In this document: piece by piece, positions 6,701 through 64,000 of the stretch
How positions within the stretch are numbered: position 1 is the stretch's first letter
How the letters are laid out: every line of letters begins with the position of its first letter
IMG/VR virus record: IMGVR_UViG_3300045988_085724
Location: 33,123-97,122 of that record
Strand: one strand, 5' to 3'
Source: a virus
Length of the DNA: 64,000 nucleotides
The notes under the pieces: model-generated
The model's input: only the letters and a program-made list of their open reading frames with translations
The model's database searches: none
What the model was told of the DNA's origin: nothing
Position numbers and translations under genes: made by a program

Positions 6701-8438
6701 GAATTCGTATATCACCTATCCATATTACGTCACTTCTTGTACCGTCGTTCTTATACAATACTATGCCGTATCGGTATACTTCACCACGTTTAAGAGATTT
6801 GATACAACTACTTGTAATAGCATCATTATGAGTCACCTTATCTGGACGTGGAAACCCACAATCAGAAATAATATCATACGCATTCGGTAGAGGTACATTT
6901 TCTTCTTGGTCTTGAGGTATTTTGGGCTTGATATCAAAAACAGGTACAAATCTATCATCGGACAAATCGTACTGTAGATAATACGAATTATTTGTATCTA
7001 TCGCCTCATCGTCATCAATCTAAAGTAACTATAACCTCCATGAGATATAAACACCGCTACCTCCAATATAATTATTATAATCAAACATGGCGTTACTGTA
7101 CTGATTATCAAAATTATGATTTACATCGGCATATGGGTTTGAATAATCAGCATTGTTGAACATCTTATCGCTTATAAAAGCCTAAACTGCTTTATCACCA
7201 TTGTCAACCTAGTCAGGAGATTTAGACTCTGGTTTGTTATATGTATTTACATCTAGATACGGAATATTATACTTATTACCGCTAACCGGAGTAAACTATA
7301 TAGCCCAGAACTTTTTAAGATCTTCTCTATCTAATTGAAATATAGTATCATCCTTTACATTTCCAGCGAATAAATAGCCTTGATTTTGTTCAAGTAATTT
7401 AGGTATAATGTCCTGTCCATGTATCTAAGCGAACTCTTCAACGGATATAGTCTGTAAAGTCTTACGCCCGTTATCTATAACACTAATGTTTGTGCCTGTA
7501 AACTCACCGTCATATATCAGATCAATCTAAGCATTCTAATTAGGTTTTATATATTGTATTCTATATACCTATAGCCTATCGAATTGATCTATCTTCTCAT
7601 CAACTGCTATTCCTAACTATAAACCTATTGACGTAACTGTATCTTCAGCACAGCCAACTTCAGTATCACGAGAAGGATTTATGACTTGATATTTACGACT
7701 TAATGGTGCTAATTTACTAGTTACTCCATATTTCTTATAGAATCTATAAGTATATTGTACCTATGAAGTTTTAAGTTGTCCTCCTACGATTGCCTTATAT
7801 GTAATAGCATGTTTTGGGAAATACCTATTTTGACTAATTAAATCTATATCAATTTCTCCATCTGTTTTATGGGTTGTTTCATCTATTTTATACAGACTTT
7901 TAATATAATCAGTATCCTTTACATTGATCATCATTATCTTATGCTCGCCGTCTGCAATATATAGATTTACTACTTTGTCAGTTTCATACTGTAATACTGC
8001 CGAAACATTTCGCAAGTCAACTGCATCTTCTACTTTTTCTCGAATTTTTATTTTGCACAAGAATGCCCATCTGTATCTTGGTAATTCATCAGAAGCCTCT
8101 ACTTTATACAAATATATGTAATTATTATGTAGCTTAATTAAGATATTAGTGTCTCCTGACGTAATTATTTTTATTATCCGCTGAGTTTTATCGTCGTCGA
8201 ATTTAGGTACAATCTAAGTCGTATAAGTAATGTCTTCATTTAACGCTTTAACTGGAGTCATTACTCCGTATTTTCCATATGCAGCGATATCATTGTAGCT
8301 ATTTATTTTTGACGTACCGTACGGCCGCAAATTAACAGCATATATGTACTGGTTATTTTTAATAGTGTCATACGCAGAATCAGTATTCATACCACCAGTA
8401 AAAGTATTTATAAACGTATTATTCTGTTCAGTAGCCAT
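3729..8438 (-). CDS. giant tail/structural protein (1569 codons, TAG-recoded)
   Basis: Runs from ATG 8438 to TAA 3729-3731. Seven track pieces (8214..8501 down to 3729..4214) share one frame. I checked 6966-7340 codon by codon and found 5 TAG and no TAA/TGA. Confidence 0.75.
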
Positions 8439-36500: not shown

Positions 36501-36570
36501 AACCTTATGCCGGAATCGAACCGACCTAGTAGCTTTGTATCGCCTGACTCCACCAGTTGTCTTATAAGGT
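36501..36570 (-). tRNA. tRNA-like gene with an unresolvable anticodon arm
   Basis: It has a perfect 7-bp acceptor (ACCTTAT/ATAAGGT), a D arm (GAC..GTC) and a T arm (GTCGG-TTCGATT-CCGGC). I can pair no 5-bp/7-nt anticodon arm in GGCGATACAAAGCTACTAG. Confidence 0.35.
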
Positions 36571-36607
36571 TACATTTGTTAATATGAGCTCAATTATAAG
36601 TATGGAG

Positions 36608-36689
36608 CGCAGAGCCCAGGATTTGAACCTTGATTCTTCTGATAATCACCAAAGGTTAATCAGATGTTTTACCTTATAAACTACTCCGC
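36608..36689 (-). tRNA. tRNA-like gene with a 27-nt anticodon arm (10 extra nt)
   Basis: Acceptor is GCGGAGT/GCTCTGC, D arm GTTT-ATAAGGTA-AAAC, T arm CAAGG-TTCAAAT-CCTGG. The anticodon position is TCTGAT-N15-ATCAGA. Confidence 0.35.
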
Positions 36690-51530: not shown

Positions 51531-51983
51531 ATGGCAAAAGAAACTAAAAAAGTAGAGGTAGCAAAAACAGTAGTTGACGAAAACAATGTTCTTGATACAA
51601 TCAAGAATGGTAACAAAATGCCAGATGGCTTGGCTGATGAGGTAAAGAACGAAATCGCCGAAGAGGAGAAAAAGAAGAAGAAGAGTATCCTCAAGGAGAA
51701 GATCTTGAAGGCCGGCTATTGGAACAAGAAGGAACTACTGCAACTGCGCCAGCGTCGTCGCGAGGAGAAGGCGACAAAGGAAGCTCTGACTCGCTCAAAA
51801 GAGCAGTTAGATAATTTGGCAAGTGGCAAAATCACGCCTGTCGAGTACGAAGAAGAGCTTAAGAAGTCTCAACAAGAGAAGGATAAGGCCATTCGTGAGA
51901 GTAACGAGGCATATCGCAAGGAATTGCGTGAACTTCAGAATTCTCTCGAAGGCGACTACGTCTGGGATTGGGACCGCTACTAA
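51531..51983 (+). CDS. K/E-rich coiled-coil protein (150 aa)
   Basis: Intact ORF ending in TAA. Confidence 0.6.
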   Translation: MAKETKKVEVAKTVVDENNVLDTIKNGNKMPDGLADEVKNEIAEEEKKKKKSILKEKILKAGYWNKKELLQLRQRRREEKATKEALTRSKEQLDNLASGKITPVEYEEELKKSQQEKDKAIRESNEAYRKELRELQNSLEGDYVWDWDRY

Positions 51984-52494
51984 AAGCTCGATTCATAAAT
52001 TGAATTCAGATCATAGAACCTTTGAGTCACATGATTACGTGGAGGGGGAAGTTAACGCTTGGGATCTGGCATTATGCTTCAGTTGCGGAACACCACGAGA
52101 CATGAATTGACATGTCATACAGAGCCTAGAGCCAGTTATGAATTCAGATGCCGAACTTACGGTAGTTTAAATATAAGTCACATGATCAAAAGAATTGAAT
52201 CTTAGCGAGTCATTGGAGCCTCGACAAGGTTAGCATTGGTTAACTACGTCGACTGAGATGTAAATCAAAAATGTTGAAAGCGACATGCAAGAGTCTTAGA
52301 ACCAGTCATATCACCGCTTGTATTAAGCCAAATAAAGCCGTTTTAAAGCGTTATTAATCGATTGTGAAGTAGCTAATCACATGAGACCAAATAACGTCTT
52401 AAAACGGCTTAAAACAGGCTTAAATCAAATGTTCTATCTGATCAATAGAACATTTACAAAGAATAATAGCATGTATGAGGTAATTTACGAAGAC

Positions 52495-52539
52495 GAGGGT
52501 TCGAATCCCTCATGGTCCACGTCTACATAGACATTTTTT
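52495..52539 (+). other. tRNA 3'-half-like module + terminator
   Basis: GAGGG-TTCGAAT-CCCTC-ATGGTCC-A, then GTCT-ACAT-AGAC-ATTTTTT. No matching 5' acceptor strand was found within about 130 nt. Confidence 0.45.
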
Positions 52540-52559
52540 CATAATAAGGAAAACTATCG

Positions 52560-52592
52560 CCAATGTGGTTCGTGAGAATAGCATTGGTTTTT
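52560..52592 (+). terminator. hairpin with conserved loop GGTTCGTGAGAATA + T-run (copy 1)
   Basis: CCAATG-TGGTTCGTGAGAATAG-CATTGG-TTTTT. Confidence 0.5.
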
Positions 52593-52735
52593 AACAAGGG
52601 CCATACTGGATTTGATTCGTAAAGGAAGTAAATACGTTAAGTGCTACTATATAAATTCAACTGGCAACTATAATGTTGTAGATTACACACATGTAGCATG
52701 AGTGTAATCTGAGTGTTTCCTACTAAAGTGGAGGA

Positions 52736-52793
52736 AGATGTAATACGATAGGCGTACATTGTGGTTCGAGTCCACTACATCTACGAAATTTAT
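52736..52793 (+). other. mini tRNA-like element (acceptor + T arm + one short hairpin)
   Basis: AGATGTA..TACG-ATAGG-CGTA..GTGG-TTCGAGT-CCAC-TACATCT-A. Confidence 0.4.
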
Positions 52794-52829
52794 TTGTCTA
52801 TTGTTTATGAAAAGTTATTAGAGTAGTAG

Positions 52830-52858
52830 TGCACGGTTCGTGAGAATAGTGCATTTTT
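52830..52858 (+). terminator. hairpin with conserved loop GGTTCGTGAGAATA + T-run (copy 2)
   Basis: TGCAC-GGTTCGTGAGAATA-GTGCA-TTTTT. The stem differs from copy 1 while the loop is identical. Confidence 0.5.
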
Positions 52859-52867
52859 AATTTGATT

Positions 52868-53320
52868 ATGAGTAATACAGGATATAAAGCTATGTTACGA
52901 GACAGAGTCCCGTACGTAGTAAATCTAGCATTACTATGGTGTAATTCCAAAGGAAGCTGGATTAATCATGTCTATGAAACGCAAATCGCTATTTATGTGA
53001 ATAAAAAAGATCGAGACGATGCCACACGAAACGTATTAGGTCTTAAAAAGCATAATAAAGGATTTAACTTTCATAAATCTATTGATTGGGGTAACCTAAG
53101 TGTAGATGATAAAACCAAATGGGAAAACATCGAAGCATGGGTTACTTGGTTCCAAGTTCATCATATGTATATCAAATATATATGTGATTGTGCTTTAGCG
53201 AAAGGTGAAAAAGTAGACACTATCAAAGAAAGTGTCAAAAAATATCTTTCGTCCTCTGTTGATCCCAGTTTATGGGATAAGTTGGTAACATTCTTAATTA
53301 ATAATTTAGTTTATGAATAG
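52868..53320 (+). CDS. hypothetical protein (150 aa); TAG-terminated
   Basis: Runs from ATG 52868 to TAG 53318-53320, overlapping the next ATG. Confidence 0.55.
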   Translation: MSNTGYKAMLRDRVPYVVNLALLWCNSKGSWINHVYETQIAIYVNKKDRDDATRNVLGLKKHNKGFNFHKSIDWGNLSVDDKTKWENIEAWVTWFQVHHMYIKYICDCALAKGEKVDTIKESVKKYLSSSVDPSLWDKLVTFLINNLVYE

Positions 53321-53759
53321 TTTCCCCTATATTTTAACACAACGTCTAATGTTAGAAAAACTAAGATTGGGCGTAAATGTTGATGTTTCTAATGTAAATA
53401 CTATGAGTGAAACTTTGACGGCGTTGCGTATCGCAAGCAATCAAGGCGTTAATGCTGGAAAAGTGTATATACCAGAAGTATTTATTAGAGGCATTTCGTG
53501 GTCAAAACAAAATCAAAGAATCTTAGAATATTTAGCTTCAAGTAAGATATTTCAAAATAGAGCAATATGGGTATATCGTAATATAATCATAACTTGTAAC
53601 ACAGATGAGTGGACTACAGGTGATGTCAAAATACGAATAGCCTCCAGCGCTATGAGATGTTTGTTTGACAAAGATGATTACATATACATATGTGATTCTC
53701 TTTTAGCCAATATTAAAGATTTGAGAGAATGTTTGATAAACGAATCGCTGCCATTTTGA
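53313..53759 (+). CDS. hypothetical protein (148 aa)
   Basis: Intact ORF ending in TGA. Confidence 0.55.
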   Translation: MNSFPYILTQRLMLEKLRLGVNVDVSNVNTMSETLTALRIASNQGVNAGKVYIPEVFIRGISWSKQNQRILEYLASSKIFQNRAIWVYRNIIITCNTDEWTTGDVKIRIASSAMRCLFDKDDYIYICDSLLANIKDLRECLINESLPF

Positions 53760-54424: not shown

Positions 54425-54853
54425 ATGGCATTATTTTGGTTCATTTGCGGGATATTGTTAATATGCGGAATCGCCCGATATAACGAATCCAACAAATTGT
54501 TCTGGACATTGCTGGTATCCTTCGTAGGTACCTTTGCTGCTGCAAGCATCGTTATTGCAACATGTAATAACGACACGAAGAACGTTAAGACTAATGTTAG
54601 CCCCACACAGTTGTATGTAAGCACACAACTTCCGTCGCTTTATGCCATGGACATGACTTACGATACCACTTACGATGTACCTACAAGTACATCAGTCACT
54701 GTGAGTAAGGATTACTACATTAGTAACGACGTTCTCTCGGACAGCAGAGTAAGTAACTTAGAAGATAAACCACCACAATCCAAACAATTATGTTACAATA
54801 TTTCGATACCTCTTAAATTAAGTAAGTTTAATCCAATTAAAGATTCATCGTGA
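54425..54853 (+). CDS. two-TM membrane protein, candidate anti-sigma factor
   Basis: It starts 1 nt after the sigma gene stop. N-terminus MALFWFICGILLICGIA...LFWTLLVSFVGTFAAASIVIA. Confidence 0.4.
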   Translation: MALFWFICGILLICGIARYNESNKLFWTLLVSFVGTFAAASIVIATCNNDTKNVKTNVSPTQLYVSTQLPSLYAMDMTYDTTYDVPTSTSVTVSKDYYISNDVLSDSRVSNLEDKPPQSKQLCYNISIPLKLSKFNPIKDSS

Positions 54854-62721: not shown

Positions 62722-62812
62722 TGCAGTGAAGTCTATGTGCGCATAGCTCCTGAAGAGAGATGACATCGTAGCGGATAACGTCTCTTAGTGGGTTCGAGTC
62801 CCACCACTGCAA
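62722..62812 (+). tRNA. 91-nt tRNA-like gene with a non-canonical D arm and an oversized central arm
   Basis: Acceptor is TGCAGTG/CACTGCA (U1:A72), T arm GTGGG-TTCGAGT-CCCAC, D position CTATG-TGCG-CATAG (5 bp / 4 nt). The central region is either AGAGA-N20-TCTCT, or an imperfect arm with loop CTGAAGA (GAA) plus a 26-nt extra arm. Confidence 0.4.
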
Positions 62813-62838
62813 CTATATTAACTAAGAACCTTTGAGTC

Positions 62839-64000
62839 ATGATAATACGAAATTCCGTCGTAATAGTATACGACATAGAAATCTTCCCAAACGTATTTCA
62901 TTGTACTTGTAAAGACACAGAGGAAAATAAATTGTACTTTTTTGAAATATCAGATCGTAAAAATCAGCTAACAGAATTAGTTGATTTTTTCTTTTATAAG
63001 AATATAGGCGATAAGATGTTTTGTGGGTATAATAACAAACACTATGATGATGTAGTAATAAACTATCTTATAGATTTTTATTATAAAATGGATACATTGT
63101 CATATGATAAAGTTTGTACGTCTTTGTATAATCTTTCAAATACGATAATTACGGCAGAAGAAGGTGATACTAGTAAATTTAAGCGATGGAAATATGCAAA
63201 GTATTTCTACTCGATGGATTTGCTAACAATGTTGTTTAGTTCTAAGTTACGCGTAGGTCTTAAAGAAATGCAAGTAACTATGCACTACAAAAATGTAGAA
63301 GAATATTCTGGTGACTTTAGTCAGTTTCTACCAGATTCAGAAATAGATAACATGATAAAATATAATATAAACGATGTAGAGTCAACAACTGAACTTCTAA
63401 ATAGGTTGAAAGACGATGTACAACTACGTCTGTTTATAGAAAAAGAATACGGTATTGATGCCTTATCGATGGATAGTGTAAAATTCGGAGAGACACTTCT
63501 ATTGAAAAAGTATTGTGAACAAACAAAACTTAGTGAACAATATGTGAAAACATTGCGTTCACCTATGGATTACATTCCATTAAAAGACGTCATATTACCA
63601 TTCATATCGTACAAAAATCCAAAATTACAAGACGTTCTTGAGGATATGAAGAGTCAAGTAGTATATTCTAAAGAACGCAAAGGCTATGAGAAGAAGTTTG
63701 TTCTCTCAAACGTACGCTATTCTGTAGGTGTAGGAGGTATACATTCCCTACATACACCACAAATCTTCGTTCCTAATGACAATGAATACATAGGCCATTC
63801 AGATGTGGCTAGTATGTACCCTTCGTTTATCATAAAGTATAAATGGATTCCACGTCATTTAGGTAAAGAATTTTGGCAAGTATATTCGCAAATATATAAA
63901 GAGCGAATAGAAGCAAAACATAGTGGACAGAAATTAAAGAACTTAGCTCTAAAGTTAACTTTAAATTCTGTTACCGGGAAAATGCAACAAGAAACCAGTT
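62839..64000 (+). CDS. family B DNA polymerase (N-terminal 387 codons, continues off window)
   Basis: Motifs are ExoI VYDIEIF, ExoII GYNNKHYDDVVINYL, ExoIII KYNINDVESTTEL, motif A SDVASMYPSFI and motif B KLTLNSVTGKM. There is no in-frame stop to the window edge. It is absent from the ORF track because it is open-ended. Confidence 0.85.
   Translation, partial: MIIRNSVVIVYDIEIFPNVFHCTCKDTEENKLYFFEISDRKNQLTELVDFFFYKNIGDKMFCGYNNKHYDDVVINYLIDFYYKMDTLSYDKVCTSLYNLSNTIITAEEGDTSKFKRWKYAKYFYSMDLLTMLFSSKLRVGLKEMQVTMHYKNVEEYSGDFSQFLPDSEIDNMIKYNINDVESTTELLNRLKDDVQLRLFIEKEYGIDALSMDSVKFGETLLLKKYCEQTKLSEQYVKTLRSPMDYIPLKDVILPFISYKNPKLQDVLEDMKSQVVYSKERKGYEKKFVLSNVRYSVGVGGIHSLHTPQIFVPNDNEYIGHSDVASMYPSFIIKYKWIPRHLGKEFWQVYSQIYKERIEAKHSGQKLKNLALKLTLNSVTGKMQQETS

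What the first reader, a model, noticed from the sequence alone, without database searches (positions are those of the whole stretch)
51990..52860. 0.87-kb non-coding region built from tRNA-like modules, a 16-bp long-range helix and repeated terminator hairpins
The region contains:
- **Long-range helix:** GCCGTTTTAAAGCGTT (52337-52352) pairs with AACGTCTTAAAACGGC (52393-52408), 15 of 16 bp.
- **Short repeats:** tandem GCTTAAAAC(A)G.
- **Anticodon-arm-like hairpin:** TGTTCTAT-CTGATCA-ATAGAACA.
- **tRNA 3' half:** a perfect T arm plus 3' acceptor strand (52495-52519) with no 5' partner nearby, followed at once by a terminator.
- **Mini tRNA:** 58 nt (52736-52793) with acceptor, T arm and one short hairpin only.

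Such acceptor/T-arm minihelices are minimal substrates for RNase P, RNase Z and the CCA-adding enzyme. The region may encode one or more non-coding RNAs that use tRNA mimicry for processing or stabilisation. Alternatively it may hold decayed or split tRNA genes.
Basis: seen in the sequence. Interest (0 to 1): 0.65.

Follow-up and report, generated by a model that had tools for sequence, protein, structure and literature searches.

The report
Two-piece tmRNA gene of crAss-like phage
The "tRNA-like modules" are the parts of a circularly permuted (two-piece) transfer-messenger RNA gene carried by a crAss-like gut phage. It is a ribosome-rescue RNA that databases already label, but its unusual build and its link to a phage family that rewrites the TAG stop codon have not been described.

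Summary
Together they form one gene: a circularly permuted tmRNA (ssrA) at about 52264-52856 (+).

- **tRNA 3' half:** 52495-52519 does have a 5' partner. It lies downstream (GGGCCAT, 52598-52604) and gives the alanine-identity pair G3·U70.
- **Tag frame:** 52663-52701 encodes GNYNVVDYTHVA*.
- **16-bp helix and "anticodon-like" hairpin:** both are conserved, covarying helices of a long acceptor piece.
- **"Mini tRNA":** 52736-52783 is a conserved acceptor/T-arm minihelix directly after the coding piece, probably a processing signal.

ARAGORN calls the gene. Rfam tmRNA_permuted scores 40.5 bits here (cut-off 47) and 62-69 bits in relatives. I found 89 distinct homologues in viral contigs, and all are permuted.

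The window is a Suoliviridae crAss-like phage, 94.8% identical to cr131_1. RefSeq annotates "tmRNA" at this spot in cr131_1 and at the matching place in seven other crAss-like genomes. The gene's existence is therefore known; its anatomy is not described in any paper I found.

It shares traits with the one-piece tmRNA of Bacteroidales hosts, which suggests a separate permutation event. All five fully tested tmRNA-bearing genomes recode TAG in late genes.

Interest is moderate.

The parts
52264..52276 (+). Conserved box ATCAAAAATGYTG. It is either a promoter element or the extreme 5' end of the acceptor piece; which one is undetermined.
   Evidence: Present in almost all close relatives at a constant 256-261 nt from the acceptor 3' end. 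It is not repeated elsewhere in the window above chance.
52278..52319 (+). 5' hairpin: AAGCG/CGCTT plus an inner stem, presenting the conserved loop AAGAGTCTTAGAACCAG.
   Evidence: Single-sequence folds in several clades give an analogous hairpin. On alignment A3 only 43-67% of cells are paired, so support is inconclusive. The loop motif recurs at 52015 and 62825.
52316..52428 (+). Long irregular hairpin of the acceptor piece.
   Evidence: Folds at -37.5 kcal/mol, z = -7.6. The main helix is 84.4% paired, and 9 of its 18 pairs show changes on both sides.
52427..52455 (+). 11-bp hairpin whose 7-nt loop CUGAUCA is kept in nearly all close relatives.
   Evidence: 96.8% of cells paired and 8 of 11 pairs covary. 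z = -4.4.
52468..52491 (+). P2 stalk, acceptor-piece strands: AGCAT (P2c), GTAT (P2b) and TTTACGAA (P2a).
   Evidence: They pair with 52641-52645, 52632-52635 and 52616-52623. In P2a all 8 pairs covary (91.6% paired), P2b is 99% paired and P2c 77.5%.
52495..52519 (+). T arm (GAGGG-TTCGAAT-CCCTC), 3' acceptor strand ATGGTCC and discriminator A52519. No CCA is encoded; the next bases are CGT.
   Evidence: T arm and acceptor stem are 100% paired in 26 sequences. Rfam alignment. Host Bacteroidales genes also lack CCA.
52520..52597 (+). Intervening segment, predicted to be cut out. It holds a 4-bp hairpin plus U6 (52521-52539) and a GUGA-capped hairpin plus U5 (52559-52593).
   Evidence: Length varies from 14 to 180 nt among 89 homologues and reaches ~720 nt with an HNH endonuclease gene in cr56_1. 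The sequence is not conserved. Fold.
52598..52645 (+). Start of the coding piece: 5' acceptor strand GGGCCAT (52598-52604), D-loop analogue ACTGGATTTGA, then the P2a, P2b and P2c strands.
   Evidence: G3·U70 is kept in 26 of 26 sequences. The D-loop 11-mer is identical to that of Bacteroides tmRNA.
52663..52701 (+). Tag reading frame GGC...TGA, encoding (A)GNYNVVDYTHVA*.
   Evidence: ARAGORN call. The frame and the VDYTxVA end are conserved with many synonymous third-position changes. A hairpin starting at the second base of the resume codon (52664-52679) is 94.6% paired.
52680..52710 (+). Hairpin enclosing the last tag codons and the stop codon, the equivalent of P5.
   Evidence: 14-bp arms, 93% complementary (I6). 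z = -3.6. 74% of cells paired across clades.
52711..52735 (+). Conserved 3' tail of the coding piece (GTGTTTCCTACTAAAGTGGAG).
   Evidence: An exact 21-mer with one free position is found in 38 viral contigs.
52736..52783 (+). tRNA-like minihelix: acceptor 52736-52742 with 52776-52782, small hairpin 52744-52756, T arm 52761-52775, discriminator A52783. It is the likely RNase P / RNase Z processing signal that sets the 3' end of the coding piece.
   Evidence: An acceptor stem plus T arm occupies this position in most lineages examined, while the middle varies from 5 to 37 nt; none was found within 115 nt in L208 or L168. Not called as a tRNA by Rfam or by ARAGORN at default settings.
52828..52856 (+). 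Second GUGA-capped hairpin with the same GGTTCGTGAGAATAG core, followed by a U run. It is the probable end of the transcription unit.
   Evidence: z = -4.7. Conserved downstream of the minihelix in L002, L010, L016 and L038.

Best explanation
The locus at about 52264-52856 (+) is a functional, circularly permuted tmRNA (ssrA) gene of a Suoliviridae crAss-like phage.

**Shown here:**
- The gene order is acceptor piece, then a variable spacer, then the coding piece.
- The two halves can form a tRNA-Ala-like domain with G3·U70 and discriminator A, a T arm, a D-loop analogue and a P2 stalk.
- The tag frame is under coding selection.

**Inferred mechanism:**
1. One precursor is transcribed rightward.
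2. RNase P cuts at G52598 and at the 5' end of the trailing minihelix (about 52736).
3. RNase Z or exonucleases trim the acceptor piece back to A52519, and the host CCA-adding enzyme adds CCA.
4. The two pieces stay paired through the acceptor stem and P2.
5. Host AlaRS charges the RNA, and host SmpB and EF-Tu deliver it to stalled ribosomes.
6. Translation resumes at GGC 52663 and appends (A)GNYNVVDYTHVA.

The gene most likely descends from a Bacteroidota-type one-piece tmRNA that was permuted in the phage lineage.
For: **Detection**
- ARAGORN calls a permuted tmRNA at 52430-52792.
- Rfam RF04321 aligns 52462-52701 end to end at E = 1.9e-6.
- Relatives L166, L003 and L018 pass the curated cut-off with 69.1, 63.3 and 62.2 bits against 47.

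**Covariation on 26 diverse homologues**
- 89.9% of cells are paired, against 72.7% in shuffles and 33-47% when partners are slid.
- 27 of 43 pairs show changes on both sides.
- Acceptor stem and T arm are 100% paired, and G1-C72, G2-C71 and G3·U70 are invariant.
- Nine different acceptor stems all keep G3·U70.

**Tag frame**
- The frame is conserved with synonymous changes: GAT/GAC, TAC/TAT, ACA/ACT/ACC, CAT/CAC, GCA/GCG.

**Distribution**
- I found 89 distinct homologues in viral contigs; the 85 I could parse all have the permuted order.
- RefSeq annotates a tmRNA at this spot in cr131_1 and, in a similar context, in seven other Suoliviridae genomes.

**Likeness to the host tmRNA**
- The D-loop analogue ACTGGATTTGA is identical, and UUUGA is invariant in the phage family.
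- Both use GGC as resume codon, and neither encodes CCA.
- The un-permuted length is 390 nt against 395 nt in the host, with a collinear 99-nt match at E = 2e-4.
Against: - The window's own Rfam score (40.5 bits) is below the gathering cut-off of 47.
- The tag ends in ...HVA, not the usual ...LAA degron.
- I found no PK1-type pseudoknot before the resume codon.
- Terminator-like hairpins with U runs sit between the two halves in this lineage. They could block co-transcription of the coding piece.
- No expression, end-mapping or charging data exist, because no Suoliviridae phage has been cultured.
- Descent from the host-type tmRNA rests on short shared motifs and a weak BLAST match. Convergence forced by using the host's AlaRS and SmpB is not excluded.
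Confidence: 0.85

Rival explanations
1. The tRNA-like domain acts without tagging. The RNA would be a decoy that soaks up host SmpB or AlaRS and blocks host trans-translation, as proposed for the tRNA-like-domain-only tmRNA of mycobacteriophage DS6A. The "tag frame" would then be conserved only as RNA structure.
For: - A phage precedent is cited (DS6A).
- The tag lacks the LAA end.
- Much of the frame lies inside hairpins (52664-52679 and 52680-52710), so some conservation could be structural.
Against: - Third-position synonymous changes occur in codons whose paired partners do not compensate, and the peptide VDYTxVA is kept across clades with different nucleotides.
- The stop codon is always in frame.
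- Relatives keep canonical ends...RLAA...RIAA and ...QEAA.
Confidence: 0.07
2. The acceptor piece and the coding piece are two separately transcribed genes. The hairpins with U runs in the spacer would be true terminators and the coding piece would have its own promoter, rather than both coming from one processed precursor.
For: - The window's spacer has two hairpins followed by U runs.
- Unrelated lineages also place a hairpin plus U run just 5' of the coding piece: L178, L177 and L208, the last with GCCCCTTCGGGGGC plus TTTT.
Against: - Many homologues have spacers of only 14-17 nt, with no room for a terminator or promoter.
- In the window only 4 nt (AACA, 52594-52597) separate the U run from G52598, so any promoter would have to precede the hairpin.
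- The promoter scan found nothing in the spacer.
Confidence: 0.1
3. The region is a graveyard of decayed or split tRNA genes, and the ARAGORN tmRNA call is a false positive.
For: - ARAGORN tmRNA calls can be false, as the tmRNA database authors say.
- The trailing element is a borderline tRNA in some relatives.
- Other defective tRNA-like elements exist in the window at 62722-62812 and 36501-36571.
Against: - Covariation of the acceptor stem, T arm and P2 across 26 sequences.
- An invariant G3·U70.
- A conserved tag frame.
- Relatives above the Rfam gathering score.
Confidence: 0.02

Closest known systems
Two-piece (permuted) tmRNA of Alphaproteobacteria, some Betaproteobacteria and Cyanobacteria (Rfam RF01849, RF01850, RF01851; merged model RF04321)
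   Same: - Same permuted gene order: T arm and 3' acceptor strand first, then a discarded spacer, then the 5' acceptor strand, P2 and the tag frame.
- The tRNA-like domain aligns over the whole of RF04321.
   Different: [quoted passage not shown] - The acceptor piece appears long (up to about 240 nt, with three hairpin domains) and the coding piece short (about 138 nt). From my own knowledge, Caulobacter is the reverse (about 82 nt and 210 nt).
- No CCA is encoded.
- The hosts of this phage group use one-piece tmRNA.
Phage-encoded two-piece tmRNAs of marine phages, such as Melnitz and pelagimyophages (PMC9004378)
   Same: A phage-borne permuted ssrA found by ARAGORN and located in an early or regulatory region.
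   Different: - Those copies resemble the two-piece tmRNA of their own (or former) alphaproteobacterial or cyanobacterial hosts.
- This one resembles a one-piece Bacteroidales tmRNA instead.
- It comes from gut Crassvirales and has no riboswitch.
One-piece tmRNA of Bacteroidales (about 395 nt; tag GETNYALAA or GENNYALAA)
   Same: - D-loop analogue ACUGGAUUUGA(C).
- T arm GACGAGGGUUCGAaUCCCUC.
- GGC resume codon.
- A 3' end of ...UCCA followed by C but with no encoded CCA.
- Similar total length.
   Different: - The host gene is not permuted.
- The host tag ends in ALAA.
- The region corresponding to the host's pseudoknot-rich middle part is replaced here by long hairpins with no detectable sequence similarity.
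tRNA-like processing elements: mitochondrial tRNA punctuation and the MALAT1 mascRNA (from my own knowledge)
   Same: An acceptor/T-arm mimic placed at the end of another RNA, so that RNase P and RNase Z define that RNA's end.
   Different: - Here the role is only inferred from conservation.
- In some relatives the element is still a near-complete tRNA.

Membership tests
tmRNA (SsrA) | A 7-bp acceptor stem formed by the 5' and 3' ends, with G3·U70 and discriminator A (alanine identity). | tested here: met
   GGGCCAT (52598-52604) pairs with ATGGTCC (52512-52518), followed by A52519. The stem is 100% paired, and G3·U70 is present in 26 of 26 sequences with 4 covarying pairs. Nine stem variants all keep it.
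tmRNA (SsrA) | A T arm with a canonical T loop, a D-loop analogue, no anticodon arm, and a P2 helix that joins the tRNA-like domain to the rest. | tested here: met
   T arm 100% paired; P2a has 8 of 8 pairs covarying. TTTGA of the D-loop analogue is invariant.
tmRNA (SsrA) | An internal tag reading frame with a resume codon and an in-frame stop. | tested here: met
   52663-52701. The frame is conserved with synonymous substitutions across clades.
tmRNA (SsrA) | A tag that ends in a hydrophobic ...(L/V/I)AA degron. | tested here: not met
   The window tag ends in ...THVA. Relatives in other subfamilies end in ...RLAA...RIAA and ...QEAA.
tmRNA (SsrA) | Pseudoknot PK1 between P2 and the resume codon. 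| tested here: inconclusive
   Only 17 nt separate P2c from the resume codon. Neither RNAalifold nor my helix scan found a pseudoknot, but neither method is built to find one.
tmRNA (SsrA) | Alanylation, SmpB binding and trans-translation. | not testable with these tools
   Needs biochemistry or proteomics.
Rfam RF04321 tmRNA_permuted | A score at or above the gathering cut-off of 47 bits. | tested here: not met
   The window scores 40.5 bits, E = 1.9e-6, with a full-length alignment. Homologues L166, L003 and L018 score 69.1, 63.3 and 62.2 bits. Membership therefore rests on homology to sequences that pass.
Permuted / two-piece tmRNA | The T arm and 3' acceptor strand lie upstream of the 5' acceptor strand, separated by a dispensable spacer. 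| tested here: met
   The permuted order holds in all 85 of 89 distinct homologues that could be parsed. The spacer is 14-180 nt and unconserved, and about 720 nt in cr56_1.
Alpha, beta or cyano subtypes of permuted tmRNA | A match to the clade-specific model beyond the tRNA-like domain. | tested here: not met
   The beta model matches only at positions 76-172 of 331, with 24.4 bits against a cut-off of 84. There is no alpha or cyano hit.
tRNA (applied to the "mini tRNA" at 52736-52783) | A cloverleaf with D arm and anticodon arm, and an RF00005 score of at least 29 bits. | tested here: not met
   No RF00005 hit even at E up to 10, and no ARAGORN tRNA call at default settings. Only an acceptor stem, a T arm and a 4-bp hairpin are present.
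Intrinsic terminator (applied to the two GUGA-capped hairpins) | A GC-rich hairpin directly followed by a U run. | tested here: inconclusive
   Both hairpins fold with a U run after them. The scan's own criteria reported none. The shared 15-nt core suggests something more specific than a generic terminator.

The most novel reading that the evidence does not exclude
The Suoliviridae two-piece tmRNA may be part of the family's TAG stop-codon recoding strategy. When the phage turns on TAG read-through for its late genes, ribosomes run past TAG-terminated host and early-phage messages, or stall at TAG. The phage's own tmRNA would clear these ribosomes. It would label the products with a phage-specific tag which, in the Oafivirinae subfamily (...VA end), no longer carries the host's AA degron. 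The permuted layout, with a spacer that tolerates hairpins, tRNA-like inserts and even a homing endonuclease gene, would be a fourth, phage-born origin of two-piece tmRNA.
Probability: 0.25. Interest if true: 0.75.

Novelty: new variant of a known kind. Interest (0 to 1): 0.45.

Why it matters
Two-piece tmRNA has so far been treated as three bacterial lineages, plus phages that copied them. Here a distinct form appears in every Suoliviridae genome I examined. Suoliviridae is the "Delta" crAss-like group, the largest group of the human-gut crAss virome, and the hosts of crAss-like phages use ordinary one-piece tmRNA.

If this form arose independently, it is a fresh natural experiment in how a tmRNA can be cut and rearranged and still work.

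It always occurs together with TAG-to-sense recoding in the genomes tested. That gives a concrete, testable idea for an open question: how recoded phages cope with the translational disorder that stop-codon suppression causes.

In practice, the family is under-called. Rfam's cut-off misses the window copy, ARAGORN misses copies with long spacers such as cr56_1, and gene callers place false ORFs on it, as in Dulem virus 42.

Tried and rejected
1. **Rfam at gathering thresholds** gave no hit in the region. The sensitive scan was needed.
2. **Other Rfam families** in 51960-52340 and the rest of the region gave only chance-level miRNA or lncRNA hits. RAGATH-20, which lies upstream of the tmRNA in cr60_1, is not present here.
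3. **Promoter search.** The conserved box ATCAAAAATGYTG is not a recurring motif in the window, and the sigma-70 scan found nothing convincing. The transcription start remains unknown.
4. **5' hairpin and outer helix extension.** The hairpin 52278-52319 and the outer extension of the long helix were only 43-67% paired on alignment A3, so I do not claim them.
5. **Pseudoknots.** A helix scan for pairing between the coding-piece tail and the acceptor-piece 5' region found nothing convincing.
6. **Flanking ORFs** (51531-51983, 52862-53320, 53313-53759, 54425-54853) have no Pfam or PHROG match. No SmpB-like gene lies next to the tmRNA.
7. **Literature.** Searches for tmRNA together with crAss, Crassvirales or recoding found no description of this RNA. 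The tmRNA database paper lists only alpha, beta and cyano permuted classes.
8. **Negative controls.** NC_024711 (p-crAssphage) is not in the collection. Only half of phage crAss001 served as a control: it showed no tmRNA and no TAG signal.
Full report
**What the window is.** The 1.9 kb around the finding is 94.8% identical to crAssphage cr131_1 (NC_055902; Crassvirales, Suoliviridae, Oafivirinae). It matches four more Oafivirinae genomes at 67-74%. In four of these five records, including cr131_1, RefSeq annotates "transfer-messenger RNA, SsrA" under the match; the fifth, a Bohxovirus, has no annotation there. The existence of a tmRNA call here is therefore not new.

**Checking the observation.**
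- The 16-bp helix 52337-52352 with 52393-52408 has 15 pairs, one of them G·T.
- It is the core of a 113-nt irregular hairpin (52316-52428) that folds at -37.5 kcal/mol, z = -7.6.
- The GCTTAAAAC-type repeats are simply the 3' strand of that hairpin.
- The "anticodon-like" hairpin is an 11-bp stem with a 7-nt loop CUGAUCA (z = -4.4).
- The T arm plus 3' acceptor strand lies at 52495-52519.
- The 15-mer GGTTCGTGAGAATAG occurs exactly twice in 64 kb, in the two hairpins noted. Each folds as a stem capped by a GUGA tetraloop and is followed by a U run.

Two statements were wrong.
- The 3' half does have a partner, downstream at 52598-52604.
- The mini tRNA is 48 nt (52736-52783), not 58.

**What it is.**
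- ARAGORN reports a permuted tmRNA at 52430-52792 with tag GNYNVVDYTHVA*.
- Rfam's permuted-tmRNA model RF04321 aligns 52462-52701 over its whole length at 40.5 bits (E = 1.9e-6). This is below the curated 47 bits, which is why the default scan was silent.

Read in gene order, the locus is:
1. a long 5' part with hairpins;
2. P2 strands;
3. the T arm;
4. the 3' acceptor strand ATGGTCC, then A;
5. a 78-nt spacer;
6. the 5' acceptor strand GGGCCAT;
7. the D-loop analogue ACTGGATTTGA;
8. the complementary P2 strands;
9. the tag frame 52663-52701;
10. a hairpin enclosing the stop codon;
11. a conserved tail;
12. a tRNA-like minihelix;
13. a hairpin with a U run.

GGGCCAT paired with ATGGTCC gives G1-C72, G2-C71 and G3·U70 with discriminator A. 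This is the alanine identity set.

**Comparative test.**
- Two exact-pattern scans of viral contigs brought in 38 and 103 loci. One pattern was the conserved tail and the other the tag end.
- These gave 89 distinct tmRNA regions. In the 85 that could be parsed the T arm lies upstream, with spacers of 14-180 nt and nine different acceptor stems that all keep G3·U70.
- On a 26-sequence alignment the proposed structure has 89.9% of cells paired, against 72.7% in shuffles and 33-47% when partners are slid by 1-3 columns. 27 of 43 pairs change on both sides.
- Acceptor stem and T arm are 100% paired, and all eight P2a pairs covary. This holds even between the window and its 95%-identical relative (TTTACGAA/TTCGTAAA against TTTGCGTC/GGCGTAAA).
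- In the 5' part, the long helix (84% paired, 9 of 18 pairs with double changes) and the 11-bp hairpin (97% paired, 8 of 11 covarying) are supported. The most 5' hairpin is not.
- Relatives L166, L003 and L018 pass Rfam's gathering score for RF04321 with 69, 63 and 62 bits.

**The tag is translated, or at least evolves as if it were.** Across clades the peptide reads:
- (G/D)NYNV(V/I)DYTHVA
- GDYNIVDYTCVA
- GNFNVVDYTCVA
- (G/D)NVNNIVDYT(N/H)VA

Synonymous third-position differences are frequent and the stop is always in frame. More distant Suoliviridae have GNINVVDYTGLQEAA, GNTSYVMDYTRLAA and GNFYVTDYTRIAA. The ancestral tag therefore probably had the usual AA end, and the window's subfamily has moved to ...VA.

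**The mini tRNA.** Directly after the conserved tail, most lineages examined have an acceptor stem and a canonical T arm (GGTTCGAnTCC). The part between them ranges from 5 nt, a bare minihelix, to 37 nt. In two of the 35 representatives (L208, L168) no T arm was seen within 115 nt after the stop.
- In cr60_1 it is a borderline tRNA-Leu (31.5 bits).
- In cr7_1 ARAGORN calls a tRNA-Cys.
- In the window neither Rfam nor ARAGORN at default settings calls a tRNA.

Selection has kept exactly the part that RNase P, RNase Z and the CCA-adding enzyme recognise (established knowledge) and let the rest decay. I infer that the minihelix sets the 3' end of the coding piece and separates it from the downstream message. 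In the Burzaovirus clade the next ORF starts about 10 nt later. This step is inference and is not shown.

**The spacer and the twin hairpins.** The spacer is the least constrained part.
- It is 14 nt in some phages.
- In cr130_1 it holds what may be a tRNA-like insert.
- In L226 it holds a duplicated T arm.
- In cr56_1 it holds an HNH endonuclease gene, which is why ARAGORN misses that copy.

The window's spacer hairpins are specific to its lineage. A hairpin plus U run just before the coding piece does recur in unrelated lineages, once with the same GGTTCGTGAGAATAG core. I cannot tell whether these are leaky terminators, protective or processing hairpins, or protein-binding sites.

**Origin.** Bacteroidales genomes carry a standard one-piece tmRNA of about 395 nt with tag GETNYALAA or GENNYALAA. 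crAss-like phages infect Bacteroidetes. The phage RNA shares several traits with the host RNA:
- the D-loop analogue ACUGGAUUUGA, where the other permuted families have UUCGAC in the Rfam consensus;
- the T-arm sequence;
- a GGC resume codon;
- a 3' end ...UCCA followed by C but with no encoded CCA.

Joined back in standard order the window RNA is 390 nt, and its last 99 nt align collinearly with the host's (E = 2e-4). It fits none of the alpha, beta or cyano models beyond the tRNA-like domain. A separate permutation of a Bacteroidota-type tmRNA in the phage lineage is the simplest reading. The evidence is modest, and convergence on host enzymes is possible.

**Context.** The window's leftward late genes (36-34485) are TAG-recoded. 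Stop-free stretches of at least 200 codons total 6,212 codons under the standard code and 14,463 if TAG is sense. The tmRNA lies in the rightward, standard-code region upstream of an ECF-type sigma factor.

| Genome | Standard code (codons) | TAG as sense (codons) | Notes |
|---|---|---|---|
| window | 6,212 | 14,463 | no tRNA-CUA found in the window |
| cr130_1 | 5,318 | 15,644 | |
| cr124_1 | 2,879 | 12,923 | carries a tRNA-CUA |
| cr60_1 | 5,605 | 12,110 | carries a tRNA-CUA |
| cr125_1 | 5,291 | 14,674 | carries a tRNA-CUA |
| cr56_1 | 7,239 | 11,741 | less clear-cut; TAA-as-sense gives 10,750 |
| crAss001 (Steigviridae), first half | 12,839 | 13,060 | no tmRNA found |

TAG recoding of the Delta group is known. 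A link to tmRNA is not mentioned in the papers I could search. Work on recoded E. coli shows that UAG stalling is resolved by tmRNA and that tagging and degradation limit UAG-containing genes (abstract seen, PMC6207430). The co-occurrence here is complete but is confounded with phylogeny, so I rate the functional link at about 25%.

**Verdict.** The finding is a real, conserved RNA gene of a known kind, and close relatives already carry the automatic label. It has a distinct architecture and probably an independent origin. The parts that are new are the anatomy, the trailing processing element, the tag drift and the recoding context.

Noticed in passing
window 36-34485 (- strand): The late or structural genes are TAG-recoded. 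Stop-free stretches of at least 200 codons total 6,212 codons under the standard code and 14,463 if TAG is sense, including one stretch of 1,594 codons. No canonical tRNA-CUA was found in the window.
   Followed up: partly
window 45353-45459 and 47758-47827 (+): Two RAGATH-1 hammerhead ribozymes (67.7 and 66.9 bits). Each lies 110-140 nt upstream of a tRNA gene: tRNA-Met at 45599 and tRNA-Gln at 47938.
   Followed up: no
window 62722-62812 (+): A second defective tRNA-like element between two ORFs. It has a perfect 7-bp acceptor stem and T arm with an aberrant middle. The tRNA model scores 23.2 bits, below the cut-off of 29, and ARAGORN does not call it. It is followed by the motif AGAACCTTTGAGTCA.
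   Followed up: partly
window 36501-36571 and 36608-36689 (- strand): Two odd tRNA-like genes sit at the head of the recoded late block. One has an 8-9-bp acceptor stem and a T arm (tRNA-Sec model, 23 bits). The other is a tRNA with a 17-nt anticodon loop, which ARAGORN calls Val-AAC (36.5 bits). Either could be connected to TAG decoding.
   Followed up: no
window 52015-52030, about 52123-52140, 52290-52305 and 62825-62840: The motif AGARYCTTWGARYCA (two direct half-sites) recurs. It is usually presented as the loop of a short hairpin. Three copies also lie upstream of the tmRNA in Bohxovirus (L005 2220-2520). Its function is unknown.
   Followed up: partly
L240 (cr56_1, NC_055890) about 6800-7650: An unannotated permuted tmRNA whose spacer of about 720 nt carries an HNH endonuclease gene on the opposite strand. 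Its T loop is non-canonical (GGGGC-TATCGTAT-GCCCC). The tag is GNTSYVMDYTRLVA.
   Followed up: partly
L032, L188, L201, L231: Four viral contigs carry the coding piece, but the 5' half of the acceptor-piece T arm is replaced (TTTTGTCGAC...). They may be broken or recombinant tmRNA genes.
   Followed up: no
L233 (cr60_1) 227-328: A RAGATH-20 RNA (122 bits) lies about 200 nt upstream of the tmRNA gene.
   Followed up: no
L014 and L021 (both from IMGVR_UViG_3300045988_076858, 162 kb): One contig holds two tmRNA genes of different clades. It is probably a chimeric or concatenated assembly of two phages.
   Followed up: no
L234 (Dulem virus 42, PP511876) 269-784: A permuted tmRNA (tag GNDNNIVDYTHVA) is not annotated. 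Six short hypothetical CDS are called over that stretch instead.
   Followed up: no
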